A stretch of 64,000 nucleotides of DNA from a virus. Taxonomy: Duplodnaviria > Caudoviricetes. Shown in pieces: positions 1 to 63,082 of the stretch. The translations under genes and the position numbers were made by a program. The notes below the pieces were generated by a model. That model saw nothing but the letters and a program-made list of their open reading frames with translations. It was not told the DNA's origin and did no database searches. Position 1 is the first letter of the stretch; each line of letters opens with the position of its first letter. The stretch covers positions 32,001 to 96,000 of IMG/VR virus record IMGVR_UViG_3300021255_002052. One strand, written 5' to 3'.

Positions 1-774
1 GAGTACCTCAAAAAGGTGATCCTAGACTATAACGGAGGAGCTGACGCGTACGGGAATATAGCCTATATACTGATAGACGCCGGATCTGGCGGAGGTGGAG
101 TAAATATCGCCGATTATTTAATGCCAGACTGGACGGACAAGGCGGGAATGAAGCACAGAGGGCTTATAGATAAAGAGTACTCCGAGGAATACGTAAAGAA
201 ATTTCCGAATGCAGTAGATAAAGTAAAATTAGTCTCCCCGTCTATGTATAAATCTGAGATGTACGAGGCACTCATAGAGCTTACGTCTCAGGACAAGATA
301 TCTTTTACTGCTCCCTACGACAATAAAGATTATCTTACGACCTTTGTCGTCGACGAGGCAAAGACATAGAAGCGGCGAAAAGAAATCGCCGATCGTCTCA
401 GAGCCGAAAAAGTTGACGAGTCTGAATTTGAACGAAGGTTAGCCGAAGAGCTGGAACAGGAGATGGATACTGAGCGGATTAAGCTCGACTGGGAAGACAA
501 GATGGCTTTAGCCAATATGGATGCCCTTAAGGAAGAGCTGGTCAATATGGTTAGGAAGAAACGTGAATCCGGGAAAGACTCCTTCGAGCTAACTCCGGAA
601 AAAGCGAACATTCTTCACGATGACCGCGCTTATACCGCCGCTCTTCTTGCGTACGCTCTTATGTTGGAGCGCCGGAAACAAATAATACCGAAGAAGAAAT
701 CTTCTGCGAATATTATGGATGCCCTACATATAAGAGCACCCAGGAAGGTAACACGATATGATAGGAGGGGGTGA
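1..774 (+). CDS. terL: Terminase large subunit, C-terminal nuclease part (5'-truncated; TAG at 367 read as Gln)
   Basis: ORFs 16..369 and 463..774 share a frame, joined across TAG. Motifs IDAGSGGGG and HDDRAY fit a terminase RNase H-like domain. Lies directly upstream of the portal. Confidence 0.85.
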
Positions 775-2324
775 CCGTTACGGCAAAAATAACCAGAACT
801 CAAGAGGACGATTACGTAACAAAACGTGAGCGAGCCTAGAAAATAACAGAAGCGTATTTCCAGAGGTTATCCGACGAGGGTATACTAACCCGAAATCCGC
901 GTGGTAACGTCTCGAAGACGTTTACTCAGTACACTAGAGAGGAACTGGATTCCTATACGGAGTCACCTCTGAATAACATAGACAATATCAGAGAGATCTC
1001 GCGATTCTTAACTAGAGTTTCGATGCCGTACAAGCTCTTGCTTTAGTATTATGCATCGATGTATGAGTATCGCTATAATATTACTCCTATTTCTGACTAT
1101 TCTAAGGCTTTCAAGTCTAATATCCTGAAATAGTACCAGGATATTCTCTTAAGATTCCACGGTTTCGATGTGGCGGCGGAACTGAACGATATCATCTACA
1201 TAATGCTGCGAGATGGTATCTATGTCGGATTTATGTACGACTCAGAGGAAGATGGTATGTTCTTTATGCCACTGGACGTTCGCTATTGTAGGATTACCGG
1301 CAAAACGCCCGAAGGACAGTGGATCGTATATTTCGATGCGAACTATTTTAACCAGGGGAACAATATTCAGTTTGTTGAGGGCATAGATGGCGACACTTCC
1401 GCGTGTTGGGACCCGGTGTTTGTCGACGGTTATAGACAGTACGATGAACAGGGAAGGGACTACCAGTGGTTTTAGCTAACGCCGGAACTGACGGCTTGCT
1501 TCATAGCGACGACGAGCGACGAATTCTATATGCCGCTACCCTATTTCCTGCCGATTTTCAAGAGTCTCTTGCAGCTACTCGACACGGAGACCCTGATCGC
1601 CAATAAGAACGAGCTCCAGAATTACAAACTGATCTTGGAGAAGATCCCGCTCCTGAACGGGGACGATATTGATGACTTCGCAGTCTCTTTAGACCTGGTT
1701 ATGAGATTCCAGGACTTACTCGAATAGACTGTCCCGGATAACGTAGGCGTAGGTCTTACTCCGTGTGAGACTGAGGTAGTCTCCTTCGAGAAGTCCACTT
1801 CTACCGCCGACACTGACGAACTCGGAAACGCGATGAATAATCTGTTTTCTAACGCTGGTGTAAACCGTCTGATCGTCAGTTCTGGAGAATCTTCCAACGC
1901 TAACGGAATCAAATATTCCATAGCAAATGACCTAGGAAAAATCTCGGTATTTGTTAGAAAAATAGAATCCTGGCTGAACTACTTCATCAAGAAGAATATT
2001 GCGGAGGGATTCTTTATTCGCATTATGGATATCACAAGGTATAACCACCAGGATTTCGTTAACGAGATGAAAGAAGCTGCGACTCTTGGCGGATCCAAGA
2101 TGGATTACCTGATCGCGCTCGGACACGAGCCACTGGAGATCATCAATAAGTTAAAGTTCGAAAGCGAACTACTTCAAATAGCGCAATACATGGAGCCGCT
2201 AGAAAGCTCGTATAATAGAACTGATTCTGTCGGTGGTGCTCCGACGAAACCGGATGAAGATTTATCACCAGAAGGACAGGCAACTAGAGATTCCGGGAAG
2301 AACGAAGACAAAGGTAACAAATAA
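771..2324 (+). CDS. Portal protein (~517 aa, several TAG=Gln)
   Basis: ORFs 1170, 1530 and 1833 are in one frame, separated only by TAG. Ends in TAA with a typical portal tail (GGAPTKPDEDLSPEGQATRD). Start is GTG 771 or ACG 780. Confidence 0.8.
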
Positions 2325-2330
2325 AACCAT

Positions 2331-2541
2331 ACCCATATGAGATTGTTTAGCATTTACGAGATGGGGCTGTCATCTCGAGCTTTCATTTGTGCGTTTCTTA
2401 AACGCTCGTATCATTTGATACGCTTCTAAATTTTTTCGGTGAGCATCATGGTAAAACCGATAATGCCTACTATATCAGCTATTCTGCCGATCATAGTCCA
2501 CATTTTCTCACCTCCCCTAACTATATATTTCTCATATGGGT
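2331..2541. repeat. 12-bp perfect inverted repeat ACCCATATGAGA (2331-2342) / TCTCATATGGGT (2530-2541) flanking the peptide gene
   Basis: Read directly. Internal hairpins also present at 2357-2377 and 2407-2422. Confidence 0.8.
2411..2503 (-). CDS. Small hydrophobic peptide MWTMIGRIADIVGIIGFTMMLTEKI(Q)KRIK, type I toxin-like or exclusion peptide
   Basis: Strong RBS GGGGAGGTGA before the ATG at 2503 on the minus strand. One hydrophobic segment plus a basic tail. TATAAT at 2558..2553. Confidence 0.6.
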
Positions 2542-2552
2542 GGATTTTATAC

Positions 2553-2558
2553 ATTATA
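2553..2558 (-). promoter_or_regulatory. Putative sigma-A -10 box (TATAAT) for the antisense peptide gene
   Basis: Perfect TATAAT about 50 nt upstream of the ATG. The -35 match is weak. Confidence 0.4.
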
Positions 2559-2576
2559 CACCGTAAAGGAAAAAAG

Positions 2577-2747
2577 ATGAAAAAGTTCATTAAGACGAAC
2601 GATCTGAAAACTAAGGAAATACTTCTGGAACTTGGCTATCAGCTAATTTCCGACGCTAACGGTGTAGCTACGTTCCTGAACGATTCGAAGATCGTTTTCG
2701 ATAAAAAAGATAAGAAAGTTATTTATAGTAACAAACTGGAAATATAA
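2577..2747 (+). CDS. Small hypothetical phage protein (56 aa)
   Basis: AAAGGA RBS, ATG 2577, MKKFIKTNDLKTKEILLELGYQLI..., ends TAA. Lies between portal and protease. Confidence 0.7.
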   Translation: MKKFIKTNDLKTKEILLELGYQLISDANGVATFLNDSKIVFDKKDKKVIYSNKLEI

Positions 2748-62097: not shown

Positions 62098-62236
62098 AGA
62101 TTTAGCAGAAAAGATATATTGGATATTGATTGAAGAAGGACAGCACAATTTAAATTTCCCACTTGGCAGTATAATCACAAATACACCAGATGAAGTAAGG
62201 GATATTATCCGAAAACACATCAAGGAACTAACTTAA
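62090..62236 (+). CDS. Small hypothetical protein (48 aa)
   Basis: GAAGGTGA RBS, ATG 62090, MDKDLAEKIYWILIEEGQHN..., ends TAA. Confidence 0.55.
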   Translation: MDKDLAEKIYWILIEEGQHNLNFPLGSIITNTPDEVRDIIRKHIKELT

Positions 62237-62260
62237 ATAGATCTTTCAGGAGGCAAGTAT

Positions 62261-62383
62261 ATGGTAGAGCTAATATGCGAATTCTGCTCAGAGCATTGGG
62301 TAGTTTTGTATGGGCTTTTGATGTTTGGTATAGGCGAAATCTACGGATATATCAAAGGCCGAAAAACTATCGCAGGAGCTTAA
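62261..62383 (+). CDS. Small single-TM peptide (40 aa)
   Basis: AGGAGG RBS. MVELICEFCSEHWVVLYGLLMFGIGEIYGYIKGRKTIAGA. Confidence 0.6.
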   Translation: MVELICEFCSEHWVVLYGLLMFGIGEIYGYIKGRKTIAGA

Positions 62384-62397
62384 AGGAGGAAACAATT

Positions 62398-62460
62398 ATG
62401 AAAAAGTATCATGAAGTATCGGCGGCGGTAACTGAAACGAAGCCGGTCGAGGAGGGATAA
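62398..62460 (+). pseudogene. 20-aa mini-ORF, probable internally deleted gene remnant
   Basis: Very strong AAAGGAGG RBS but only MKKYHEVSAAVTETKPVEEG before TAA. Confidence 0.35.
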
Positions 62461-62464
62461 TCTG

Positions 62465-63082
62465 ATGGACGAATTAAGGGTAATATCTAATAACCATGAC
62501 GAAAATGGAAAGTTAGCTGGCGGAAAGGTCGGCGATTAGACCGGGTACGAGTTCGTGATTAAGAAATTCTACGACGGCGACTGGGATCTCTGCCTCCGCT
62601 ACGACGGTCCCCGCGCGGAAGAAGCTCGCGCTCTCGCCAGTCGGATCGGCTGTATTCTCGCGGCCGAGGACAAAGTAGGTTACGACACTAGCAATAAGCT
62701 GGCCCTCTCTAAGGCGCTCAAGAAAGCCGGTTACGACCCGTTCCGGATCACGGACACCGAGGCGACCTGCTCCTCTTCTATCAACGCGACCTGGATCACG
62801 GTCGGCTAGCTCCTCGATATCCCGCAGTTAAAGCTCCTCCGGCCGGGTGTTATGACCGCGCATATGAAGGAAGTATATCAGAACAGCGGCTTCACGATCC
62901 ATAGAGGGAAGCGGTTCCTCTGCGGCGAGAAGAATATTCCCGGCGACGTGATCGTAAACGAGGGCGTCCACACGATTATGGTGGTCGACTTTAAGGACGC
63001 GCGGAAGGCGCGGAACGATAAGTATAATTCCGAGAACCTTCTGAAGAACCTGGGAGGTAACGATGCCGAAAGTATACGCTGA
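62465..63082 (+). CDS. Endolysin-like NlpC/P60-type cell wall peptidase (205 aa; TAG at 62537 and 62807)
   Basis: DENGKLAGGKVGD(Q)TG, VGYD, TCSS (candidate catalytic Cys), GDVIVNEGVHT (candidate catalytic His). Confidence 0.7.

What the first reader, a model, noticed from the sequence alone, without database searches (positions are those of the whole stretch)
1..63082. Stop-codon reassignment TAG to Gln across the whole virion and lysis region
Seen: ORF fragments join in frame across TAG, the gene ends I traced are all TAA/TGA, and TAG falls at conserved Gln positions (G-TAG-ICL at 56965, GD-TAG-TG at 62537, even TAG-TAG at 56845). Known: code 15 occurs in Lak, some crAss-like and other gut phages whose hosts use the standard code. 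Inference: late genes cannot be translated until the phage supplies an amber suppressor tRNA and/or blocks RF1. That machinery is not in this window.
Basis: partly seen in the sequence, partly recalled or inferred. Interest (0 to 1): 0.85.

Follow-up and report, generated by a model that had tools for sequence, protein, structure and literature searches.

The report
Phage late genes read TAG as glutamine
A large temperate gut phage writes its virion, tail and lysis genes with the stop codon TAG used as a glutamine codon and carries its own unusual TAG-reading tRNA just upstream; this is a known phage trick, but close sister phages appear to read the same codon as glutamate.

Summary
Reading TAG as sense raises ORF coverage of the window from 0.55 to 0.94 (TGA control 0.59, TAA 0.67). 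It also joins fragments into intact genes, including a 7,494-aa tape-measure gene with 96 TAGs. I compared codons with about 65 standard-code relatives, which avoids the circular "TAG=Q" database translations. Gln is the best fit at 40 TAG columns: logL -107, against Glu -121, Ser -144, Leu -167, Tyr -175. Two of them are invariant Gln in 118 of 118 homologues. No TAG coincides with a gene end in relatives. This tRNA family occurs only in TAG-recoded relatives. No release-factor or Gln/Glu-tRNA-synthetase gene was found, but the record is about 60% complete. This kind of recoding is already described (Borges et al.; Peters et al.; phAss-1), so the finding is a new member of a known kind. The sister clade (portal 71-73% identical) places TAG at conserved Glu positions and carries a different, short CUA tRNA. 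This scan has noted TAG=Glu phages and Glu-reading sister lineages before on other DNA.

The parts
1..774 (+). 3' part of the large terminase gene (718 aa; starts upstream of the window at about genome 30618-30702); 9 in-frame TAGs in the whole gene
   Evidence: phrog_2 terminase large subunit 2.2e-28; weak PF03237 hit; 463 homologues at E<=0.001; TAG columns tabulated, e.g. column 460 is Q in 33/37
771..2324 (+). portal protein, 517 aa, 5 in-frame TAGs
   Evidence: phrog_2739 4.9e-87; TAG at aa 23 is Q in 52/65 standard-code relatives
2763..4301 (+). YonD-like head protein, 512 aa, 2 TAGs
   Evidence: phrog_3313 4e-37; the syntenic gene in relatives carries PF27290 YonD_N
4957..7210 (+). YonB-like (probable major capsid) gene split by a 1.17-kb group I intron (about 5373-6538). 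The intron carries a GIY-YIG/NUMOD3 homing-endonuclease ORF (5923-6501) with 4 in-frame TAGs; exon 1 has 2 TAGs
   Evidence: Rfam RF00028 61.9 bits at 5366-5735; NUMOD3/GIY-YIG hits; relative L004 has the gene uninterrupted, blastn breakpoints 5372/6539
7241..15855 (+). head-completion and tail-tube region genes (7241-7912, 7933-8379, 8309-8719, 8703-9944, 9955-10494, 10491-11276, 11357-12172, 12247-12600, 12876-13277, 13135-13662, 13659-14183, 14185-14646, 14643-15212, 15229-15855); about 30 in-frame TAGs
   Evidence: ORFs under TAG=Q; conserved in relatives' DNA, with TAG columns mostly Q, e.g. g8703 column 160 Q 42/45, g9955 column 139 Q 41/46, g14185 column 60 Q 4/4
15873..38357 (+). tape-measure protein gene, 7,494 aa in one frame, 96 in-frame TAGs spread evenly, ends at TAA
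   Evidence: PF10145 PhageMin_Tail at aa 2783-2992; 0 TAA/TGA in frame against 251 and 636 in the other frames; sits upstream of Dit/Tal; TAG columns 2747, 2842 and 5526 are Q in standard-code relatives
38423..39346 (+). distal-tail-like protein, 307 aa, no TAG
   Evidence: weak PF20753 hit; position between tape-measure and Tal genes
39334..43143 (+). tail-associated (Tal-like) protein, 1,269 aa, 15 TAGs
   Evidence: PF06605 Prophage_tail 6.4e-11; minor tail and tail fibre PHROGs
43161..56658 (+). tail fibre and virion-associated proteins (43161-44231; 44236-50388, 2,050 aa, 11 TAGs; 50401-52236, Laminin_G_3, 5 TAGs; 52285-53298, 6 TAGs; 53311-53823; 53848-56658, 936 aa, 12 TAGs)
56677..57081 (+). 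CmpB-like small membrane protein (PF06541), 134 aa, 3 TAGs: TAG-TAG at 56845-56850 and TAG at 56965
   Evidence: PF06541 1.9e-14; aa 57 and 97 are Q in 118/118 homologues, aa 58 is mostly M
57087..62097 (+). further tail/baseplate-like genes (two with a Gp10_C domain), 1-5 TAGs each
   Evidence: PF21939 hits; ORFs
62465..63082 (+). endolysin-like-domain protein, 205 aa, 2 TAGs (62537 and aa 115)
   Evidence: PF25309 ELLD 1.4e-32; aa 25 is CAG (Q) in standard-code contig G002 (L089/L093)
63063..64000 (+). class-V aminotransferase gene (runs to window 64196), no TAG; marks the end of the dense TAG block inside the window
   Evidence: PF00266 8.4e-62

Best explanation
The window is the late (packaging, head, tail, lysis) block of a large temperate SPbeta-like siphovirus of gut Clostridia. 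In this block TAG is an ordinary glutamine codon and only TAA and TGA end genes.

The phage supplies the decoder itself. A CUA-anticodon tRNA lies at genome 28566-28657, which is 3.4 kb before the window and 0.9 kb before the first late gene. Early, replication and lysogeny genes avoid TAG, so they can be translated by the unmodified host.

Once the suppressor tRNA accumulates and is charged by host enzymes, the late genes become translatable. They hold 226 TAGs, 96 of them in the tape-measure gene. So the code difference acts as a late-gene lock.

Shown: the recoding, its Gln meaning, its confinement to late genes, and the tRNA with its restriction to recoded relatives.

Inferred: charging with Gln, the timing, and near-complete out-competition or neutralisation of RF1. 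The last point follows from arithmetic: 96 TAGs in one essential protein need roughly 99% read-through per codon for a useful yield (0.99^96 is about 0.38; 0.95^96 is about 0.007).
For: Coding density:
- 0.55 to 0.94 with TAG recoded, against 0.59 and 0.67 for the TGA and TAA controls. Standard-code relatives gain 0-2%.

Gln identity:
- 40 TAG columns against the codons of about 65 standard-code relatives give logL Q -107.2, E -121.1, R -126.7, S -143.6, L -167.4, Y -174.7.
- TAG falls at 5/31 conserved-Q columns against 1/95 conserved-E columns, p=0.0034.
- CmpB-like aa 57 and 97 are invariant Q in 118/118 homologues.
- Tail, lysis and tape-measure sites are Q in standard-code relatives.
- Recoded relatives mostly have CAG, CAA or TAG at our TAG sites.

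Termination:
- No TAG of ours aligns with a relative's stop.

Partition:
- 11 TAG per 1000 codons in the late block; the long early genes have 0.

Decoder:
- tRNA-CUA found by ARAGORN and by Rfam at 51 bits.
- CUA tRNAs occur only in recoded relatives, in none of about 65 standard-code loci.
- 15 more viral contigs carry the same long-arm CUA tRNA, and all gain ORF coverage under TAG recoding.
- The cloverleaf is supported by compensatory changes at 16 of 24 pairs.
- It has G73, a weak or mismatched 1-72 pair, and G10. From memory of the literature, these are tRNA-Gln identity elements.

Precedent:
- Borges et al. (10.1101/2021.08.26.457843), Peters et al. (PMC9523058), Babkin et al. (PMC10607447).
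Against: There is no protein-level evidence.

Aminoacylation of the tRNA is not shown. Its 24-nt extra arm is atypical for tRNA-Gln, and crude sequence similarity could not assign an isotype.

No RF2, RF1-directed factor or Gln/GluRS gene was found, so how RF1 is beaten at 96 TAGs in one gene is unexplained. The record is only about 60% complete by CheckV, so absence is weak.

A few genes upstream of the tRNA also carry TAG (the YonJ-like exonuclease has 2), so the boundary between early and late is not sharp.

The promoter scan gave nothing above chance, so timing is inferred only from gene order and from the literature model.
Confidence: 0.92

Rival explanations
1. TAG is read as glutamate (or ambiguously Glu/Gln) in this phage, as it appears to be in its sister clade.
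For: Sister phages L006/L007, L009 and L010 (portal 71-73% identical) place TAG at conserved Glu positions. Glu is the second-best amino acid for our TAG columns. One of our TAGs lies at a conserved-Glu column. If the host makes Gln-tRNA through Glu-tRNA plus GatCAB (from a relative's host), incomplete amidation could give mixed insertion.
Against: Gln beats Glu by 14 log units over 40 columns. TAG is at 5/31 conserved-Q against 1/95 conserved-E columns. Two invariant-Q sites are TAG. Our suppressor is of the long-arm type found only with Gln-type recoding.
Confidence: 0.03
2. The host itself decodes TAG as Gln, so the phage merely matches its host and there is no phage-driven switch.
For: The host is unknown. 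Other notes of this scan report gut Clostridia that read UAG as sense (as Glu), which I did not test.
Against: Long early and replication genes contain no TAG at all, although TAG is frequent out of frame: 10-20 per 1000 out of frame against about 2.6 in frame. The phage carries its own CUA tRNA at the head of the late block. A Xis-like ORF in the lysogeny module ends at TAG. The closest bacterial homologues of the CmpB-like protein (Blautia, Ruminococcus; NCBI, table 11) have ordinary Gln there. Borges et al. find standard-code hosts for such phages.
Confidence: 0.04
3. TAG is still a stop: the late genes are decayed fragments of a dead prophage, or an assembly artefact.
For: Under table 11 the block looks like a field of short ORFs.
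Against: A 22.5-kb frame with no TAA/TGA, against 251 and 636 in the other frames. TAG sits at conserved Gln columns. Relatives from independent samples have the same property. TAG sites are conserved or exchanged with CAG/CAA among relatives. There are no frameshifts in the alignments.
Confidence: 0.005

Closest known systems
TAG-recoded (genetic code 15) gut phages: crAss-like, Lak, Garnet, Amethyst and others (Borges et al., bioRxiv 10.1101/2021.08.26.457843; proteomic validation by Peters et al., PMC9523058)
   Same: TAG is read as Gln. Recoding is concentrated in structural and lysis genes, while early genes are compatible with the standard code. The suppressor tRNA-CUA is phage-encoded. 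Hosts are presumed to use the standard code. A recoded homing endonuclease sits in a group I intron, which parallels their Agate example.
   Different: A different lineage: an SPbeta-like temperate siphovirus of Clostridia, with GenBank phage portals below 30% identical. The suppressor has a conserved 24-nt extra arm. No RF2 or aaRS gene was seen. One gene carries 96 recoded codons.
phAss-1 / proposed Phassvirus group (Babkin et al. 2023, PMC10607447)
   Same: Large gut siphoviruses (about 133-136 kb) with predicted Clostridia hosts, TAG=Gln in TerL, tape-measure and other virion genes, tRNA-Sup-CTA genes, no dedicated aaRS, and very long tape-measure proteins (about 3,150-3,210 aa).
   Different: No nucleotide match to GenBank phages. 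Our tape-measure gene is more than twice as long (7,494 aa). There is one suppressor gene rather than three. Direct relatedness to phAss-1 was not tested here.
E. coli supE-type amber suppressor (tRNA-Gln with anticodon CUA)
   Same: A CUA anticodon inserting Gln at UAG. G73, a weak first base pair and G10, which from memory are the acceptor-end features GlnRS uses.
   Different: Ours has an A1.C72 mismatch and a long structured extra arm. The host may use the GluRS+GatCAB route rather than GlnRS. Suppression must be near-complete rather than partial.
UAR=Glu nuclear codes (peritrich ciliates, NCBI table 30): relevant only to the sister clade
   Same: An amber codon read as glutamate.
   Different: Those are eukaryotic nuclear codes covering both TAA and TAG. 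Here it would be TAG only, in phage late genes, next to a TAG=Gln sister lineage.

Membership tests
Code-15-type phage recoding (TAG = Gln) | In-frame TAG inside conserved, otherwise intact genes; large gain in coding density when TAG is read through | tested here: met
   0.55 to 0.94 coverage; controls 0.59 and 0.67; relatives gain 0-2%; 226 in-frame TAGs in the late block
Code-15-type phage recoding (TAG = Gln) | TAG positions correspond to Gln in homologues that use the standard code | tested here: met
   logL Q -107 against E -121 and S -144; 5/31 conserved-Q against 1/95 conserved-E columns; 118/118 Q at two sites
Code-15-type phage recoding (TAG = Gln) | TAG not used as a terminator in recoded genes | tested here: met
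   All late genes end at TAA or TGA. No TAG aligns with a relative's stop. One Xis-like ORF outside the block ends at TAG, as expected for a standard-code lysogeny module.
Code-15-type phage recoding (TAG = Gln) | Phage-encoded suppressor tRNA with anticodon CUA | tested here: met
   Genome 28566-28657; ARAGORN plus Rfam at 51 bits; restricted to recoded relatives
Code-15-type phage recoding (TAG = Gln) | Release-factor or aaRS 'code-change' genes (present in some clades only) | tested here: inconclusive
   No PF00472 or PF00749 match, but the record is about 60% complete
Code-15-type phage recoding (TAG = Gln) | Gln observed at TAG positions in peptides | not testable with these tools
   Needs virion or metaproteomic mass spectrometry
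Class II tRNA (Ser/Leu/Tyr) suppressor | A long variable arm together with insertion of Ser, Leu or Tyr | tested here: not met
   A long extra arm is present. But the D stem has 4 bp, and S, L and Y are 36-67 log units worse than Q at TAG columns.
tRNA-Gln identity (substrate of GlnRS or GatCAB) | G73, weak U1-A72-type first pair, U35, G10 (identity set recalled from the literature) | tested here: inconclusive
   The family has G73, G10, U35 and a weak or mismatched 1-72 pair (U-A, A-U, A.C or U.U). Aminoacylation itself cannot be tested, and isotype by similarity failed.
SPbeta-like siphoviruses | Yon/Yom-type head, tail and replication gene set in SPbeta order | tested here: met
   Syntenic genes of close relatives carry YonJ_N, YonG_N, YonD_N, YonB, YomW and YomU_Tube Pfam families. 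Distant portal homologues are large Firmicutes siphoviruses. Taxonomic placement was not tested further.

The most novel reading that the evidence does not exclude
Within one recoded clade of this phage family the meaning of TAG differs between sister lineages. Our phage and L004 read it as Gln with a long-arm CUA tRNA that has a weak 1-72 pair. L006/L007, L009 and L010 read it as Glu with a short CUA tRNA that has C1-G72, A73 and a 4-nt variable loop. Hosts of this family may make Gln-tRNA by amidating Glu-tRNA with GatCAB. If so, the choice between Gln and Glu could be set simply by whether the suppressor is a GatCAB substrate, which would make amber-codon meaning evolvable by a few tRNA changes.
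Probability: 0.3. Interest if true: 0.8.

Novelty: new member of a known kind. Interest (0 to 1): 0.45.

Why it matters
For this window the practical point is annotation. Under table 11 the whole virion and lysis block is unreadable. Under TAG=Gln it is a normal SPbeta-like late operon. The case adds a temperate Clostridia siphovirus lineage to the known TAG-recoded gut phages. It also shows an extreme load, with 96 recoded codons in a single essential gene, which implies almost complete suppression of termination at TAG.

The wider value lies in two side results. First, there is a conserved, structurally unusual suppressor tRNA family that marks TAG=Gln phages. Second, a sister clade apparently reads TAG as Glu. 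That sister pair is a natural system for asking how the meaning of a reassigned stop codon is set and changed. It also warns that the automatic "TAG=Q" translation used by databases can be wrong for some phages.

Tried and rejected
- Counting Q at TAG columns in database homologues. Rejected as circular: the collection translates close relatives "with_TAG=Q". I used relatives' DNA and NCBI-sourced proteins instead.
- PDB sequence search with the endolysin-like protein. Only spurious alphaRep repeat matches.
- Single-protein scan of viral contigs, and the word-indexed protein search, for the endolysin-like protein. Nothing, or one fragment.
- Tail and lysis genes against five standard-code relatives. 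Few alignments, because these modules are poorly conserved, so the tail/lysis evidence rests on fewer columns.
- Assigning the isotype of the CUA tRNAs by pairwise similarity to 213 ordinary phage tRNAs. Not discriminating: every comparison scores 80-90%.
- The idea that the extra arm is a vestigial UUG anticodon arm. This was suggested by a MAFFT alignment. It is not supported: the arm folds as a 4-5-bp stem with a UGAAG-type loop, and its loop sequence is conserved for other reasons.
- Promoter and terminator consensus scan around the tRNA. Promoter-like sites are at chance level.
- Release-factor and Gln/GluRS genes. None found in the record.
- Megablast of 25 kb of the window against GenBank phages. 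No match.
- TAG-terminated table-11 ORFs outside the late block as evidence for TAG stops. Nearly all are antisense to the real genes, or are fragments of longer read-through frames.
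Full report
**What the window is**

The window is bases 32001-96000 of a single 109,771-bp viral record. CheckV rates the record about 60% complete. All real genes in the window lie on the + strand.

Annotation under TAG=Gln gives a normal large-siphovirus late operon, in this order:
- large terminase (its start lies upstream of the window);
- portal (phrog_2739);
- YonD-like and YonB-like head genes, then head-completion and tube genes;
- a tape-measure gene with a PF10145 domain;
- Dit-like and Tal-like (PF06605) proteins, then several large fibre or virion proteins;
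- a CmpB-like small membrane protein (PF06541);
- Gp10_C-domain proteins and an endolysin-like-domain protein (PF25309).

Syntenic genes of close relatives carry SPbeta Yon/Yom Pfam families. Just beyond the window lie a class-V aminotransferase, the true endolysin (Amidase_2 + Glucosaminidase + SPOR, one in-domain TAG), a Tn916-type tyrosine integrase and a Xis-like ORF. The phage is therefore temperate. The nearest GenBank phage portals are below 30% identical and belong to large Firmicutes siphoviruses, and there is no nucleotide match.

**Checking the observation**

Under table 11 the window is a field of short ORFs: 42 of 66 greedy ORFs of at least 100 aa end at TAG, and coverage is 0.55. 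Reading TAG through gives 36 ORFs and coverage 0.94. The same treatment of TGA or TAA gives 0.59 and 0.67 (raw lists). Four standard-code relatives gain 0-2% and use TAG for 15-20% of their stops.

The most extreme case is window 15873-38357. It is one 7,494-codon frame with 96 TAGs and no TAA or TGA. The other two frames of that stretch hold 251 and 636 TAA/TGA.

None of our in-frame TAGs aligns with a stop codon in any standard-code relative.

**Which amino acid**

This needed care for two reasons. First, the phage's CUA tRNA has a long extra arm, an architecture normally associated with Ser, Leu or Tyr tRNAs. Second, the big protein collections translate close relatives "with_TAG=Q", so Q at TAG columns in those proteins is a convention and not evidence.

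I therefore fetched about 80 related loci as DNA and aligned our late proteins to them with X at every TAG. I sorted the relatives by whether their aligned genes contain in-frame TAG: about 15 recoded, about 65 standard.

Using only the standard-code loci, 40 of our TAG columns give these column-weighted log-likelihoods:

| Residue | logL |
|---|---|
| Gln | -107.2 |
| Glu | -121.1 |
| Arg | -126.7 |
| Ser | -143.6 |
| Leu | -167.4 |
| Tyr | -174.7 |

Gln makes up 26% of aligned residues at these columns, against a 2.6% background. Several columns are 80-93% Gln: terL 460, g8703 160, g9955 139, g4957 71 and portal 23.

Among 31 columns with at least 80% conserved Gln, ours is TAG at 5. Among 95 conserved-Glu columns it is TAG at 1 (p=0.0034).

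- CmpB-like residues 57 (the first codon of the TAG-TAG pair) and 97 (G-TAG-ICL) are Gln in 118 of 118 homologues. These include nine NCBI proteins from Blautia, Ruminococcus and similar genomes.
- The second codon of the pair aligns mostly with Met.
- GD-TAG-TG aligns with CAG in the one standard-code relative that has the gene. Tape-measure and tail columns also show Q.

TAG=Gln is therefore well supported throughout the block.

**Where the recoding applies**

In-frame TAG runs at 11 per 1000 codons in the block from genome about 29.6 kb to 95.1 kb. There it makes up 26% of all Gln-type codons.

Long genes elsewhere have none, for example the 916-aa ORF at 21799-24549, the integrase, and the minus-strand early cluster at 98-108 kb. 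Out-of-frame TAG there is 10-20 per 1000 codons, so TAG is actively avoided in frame.

Table-11 ORFs that end at TAG outside the block are nearly all antisense artefacts or pieces of longer read-through frames. The boundary is not perfectly sharp: a YonJ-like exonuclease gene upstream of the tRNA has two TAGs. One small Xis-like ORF next to the integrase ends at TAG. That lead came from another first-stage note (e1-5767692). It fits a lysogeny module written for the host's standard code, but Pfam did not confirm that the ORF is an excisionase.

**The machinery**

The genome has six ARAGORN tRNAs. One has anticodon CUA, at genome 28566-28657. It lies between an HU-like gene and tRNA-Asn, 0.9 kb upstream of the YonG-like gene that opens the late block. 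Rfam scores it 51 bits.

It has a class-I body (4-bp D stem), an A1.C72 mismatch, G73, G10, and a 24-nt stem-loop in the variable region.

Among the related loci, CUA tRNAs occur only in recoded phages. An exact-pattern scan with its anticodon arm found 15 more viral contigs carrying the same long-arm tRNA, many of them 150-190 kb. All of those loci gain ORF coverage under TAG recoding.

Across 16 members, 16 of 24 pairs show compensatory changes. The anticodon arm and the extra arm are almost invariant in sequence, while the acceptor, D and T stems vary freely. G73 and a weak or mismatched 1-72 pair are constant. From my recollection of the literature, these acceptor features are the tRNA-Gln identity set. 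Charging itself cannot be tested here.

No RF-1/RF-2 domain or Gln/GluRS catalytic domain is encoded in the record, and the record is incomplete.

With 96 TAGs in one essential gene, per-codon read-through must be about 99% for a useful yield. So RF1 must be strongly out-competed or disabled. This is an inference from arithmetic and not an observation.

**Comparison with what is known**

TAG=Gln recoding of late and lysis genes is established for gut phages:
- Borges et al. describe it, with phage suppressor tRNAs and standard-code hosts, including Firmicutes-infecting clades. They also describe a recoded intron endonuclease.
- Peters et al. confirmed it by proteomics.
- phAss-1 is a very similar kind of phage: a gut siphovirus with a predicted Clostridia host, tRNA-Sup-CTA genes and a 3,149-aa tape-measure protein.

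The finding is therefore a new member of a known kind. I found no paper describing a Gln-decoding CUA tRNA with a long extra arm. Borges et al. did anticipate non-canonical suppressor tRNAs.

**An unexpected side result**

I ran the reciprocal test, asking what our genome has where recoded relatives have TAG. The relatives split into two groups.
- L004, our 92% relative, matches our Q or TAG.
- L006/L007, L009 and L010 (portal 71-73% identical) match our GAA/GAG: 41 of 65, 19 of 28 and 18 of 23 sites for L006, L009 and L010.

Against the standard-code relatives their TAG columns are conserved Glu: terL 362 E 39/39, terL 640 E 33/33, portal 75 E 64/68. Glu beats Gln by 27, 8, 10 and 11 log units in L006, L007, L009 and L010. 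At conserved columns they have TAG at 0 Q-sites and at 15, 6, 5 and 6 E-sites. All Gln-type phages show the opposite pattern (pooled p=6.7e-11).

A quick maximum-likelihood portal tree puts (ours + L005) and (L007, L009, L010) as sisters in one recoded clade, with SH-aLRT support 100. That clade is nested among standard-code phages. Two further TAG=Gln clades lie elsewhere in the tree. The careful tree search did not finish.

The Glu-type phages carry a different suppressor: 73-75 nt, acceptor stem CGCCCC/GGGGUG, A73, a 3-bp D stem and a 4-nt variable loop. Their TAGs are also confined to late genes.

The Clostridia MAG that hosts a related standard-code prophage has GatB but no detectable GlnRS-type anticodon-binding domain. 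The MAG is incomplete and is not our phage's host. This suggests, but does not show, that Gln-tRNA is made through Glu-tRNA in these hosts. If so, Gln versus Glu at TAG could depend on whether the suppressor is amidated.

I found no paper reporting TAG=Glu in phages. Other agents of this scan have noted TAG=Glu phages, Glu-reading sister lineages of TAG=Gln phages, and UAG=Glu gut Clostridia on other DNA. Those are unverified notes and not independent support.

**Verdict**

The recoding itself is a described phenomenon in a new lineage. The suppressor tRNA family, the 96-TAG tape-measure gene and the Glu-reading sister clade are what make the locus worth a second look.

Noticed in passing
L006 (ENA ERZ12202954 NODE_1085), L007, L009 plus L118-L121 (IMGVR_UViG_3300021387_000199), L010 plus L120/L122 (IMGVR_UViG_3300012007_000008): Sister phages (portal 71-73% identical to ours) place in-frame TAG at conserved glutamate positions, not glutamine. 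Glu beats Gln by 8-27 log units, and TAG falls at 0 conserved-Q against 5-15 conserved-E columns. Their TAG use is also confined to late genes.
   Followed up: partly
L002 8567-8656 (genome 28566-28657); also L004 6080-6169, L048, L084, L086, L103-L117: A conserved family of CUA-anticodon tRNAs with a 24-nt extra arm, G73 and a weak or mismatched 1-72 pair, found only in TAG=Gln phages. The anticodon arm and extra arm are nearly invariant while the other stems covary.
   Followed up: partly
L010 4934-5008; L119 6775-6847: The Glu-type phages carry a different, short CUA tRNA: shared acceptor stem CGCCCC/GGGGUG, A73, 3-bp D stem, 4-nt variable loop. The L119 copy has C instead of U at position 33.
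   Followed up: partly
window 15873-38357: The tape-measure gene is 7,494 codons. Standard-code relatives have 2.4-3.7 kaa. The Glu-type sisters have at least 5.0 and 5.3 kaa. This predicts a tail of about 1 micrometre. The gene is not a simple tandem repeat; only a short 24/48-nt array occurs at 37620-37750.
   Followed up: partly
window 5366-6538: A group I intron (Rfam 61.9 bits) with a GIY-YIG/NUMOD3 homing-endonuclease ORF (5923-6501, 4 in-frame TAGs) splits the YonB-like probable capsid gene. The 92% relative L004 lacks the insertion.
   Followed up: partly
L001 15295-15378 and 15877-15990 (same genome coordinates): Two Rfam tRNA hits (41 bits each) that ARAGORN does not call. They have 22-nt and 48-nt inserts where the anticodon loop should be, so they may be intron-containing or degenerate tRNAs. 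Their anticodons were not determined.
   Followed up: no
window 63063-64196 (runs past the window end): A TAG-free class-V aminotransferase (cysteine-desulfurase-like, PF00266 8e-62) sits between the endolysin-like-domain gene and the true endolysin. This is an odd passenger in a lysis region.
   Followed up: no
L003 4230-5730, minus strand (genome 98230-99730): A Tn916-type tyrosine integrase, with a 59-aa Xis-like ORF upstream that ends at TAG. Read-through would add 25 residues and overlap the int start. This may be the only gene here that uses TAG as a stop. Pfam gave no hit for the small ORF.
   Followed up: partly
L002 1799-4549 (genome 21799-24549): A 916-aa TAG-free ORF with a DFDSD motif that matches the uncharacterised phrog_8308 (profile length 847). 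It may be a YonO-like phage RNA polymerase that would transcribe the late block.
   Followed up: partly
window 56677-57081: The CmpB-like membrane protein has 60-66% identical homologues on large chromosomal contigs of Blautia and Ruminococcus. This is a clue to a Lachnospiraceae/Ruminococcaceae-type host. Its role (holin-like?) is unknown.
   Followed up: no
L011 2803-2877: A standard-code relative carries a tRNA with anticodon UCA (called tRNA-SeC by ARAGORN), that is, a possible TGA suppressor in a phage without visible TGA recoding.
   Followed up: no
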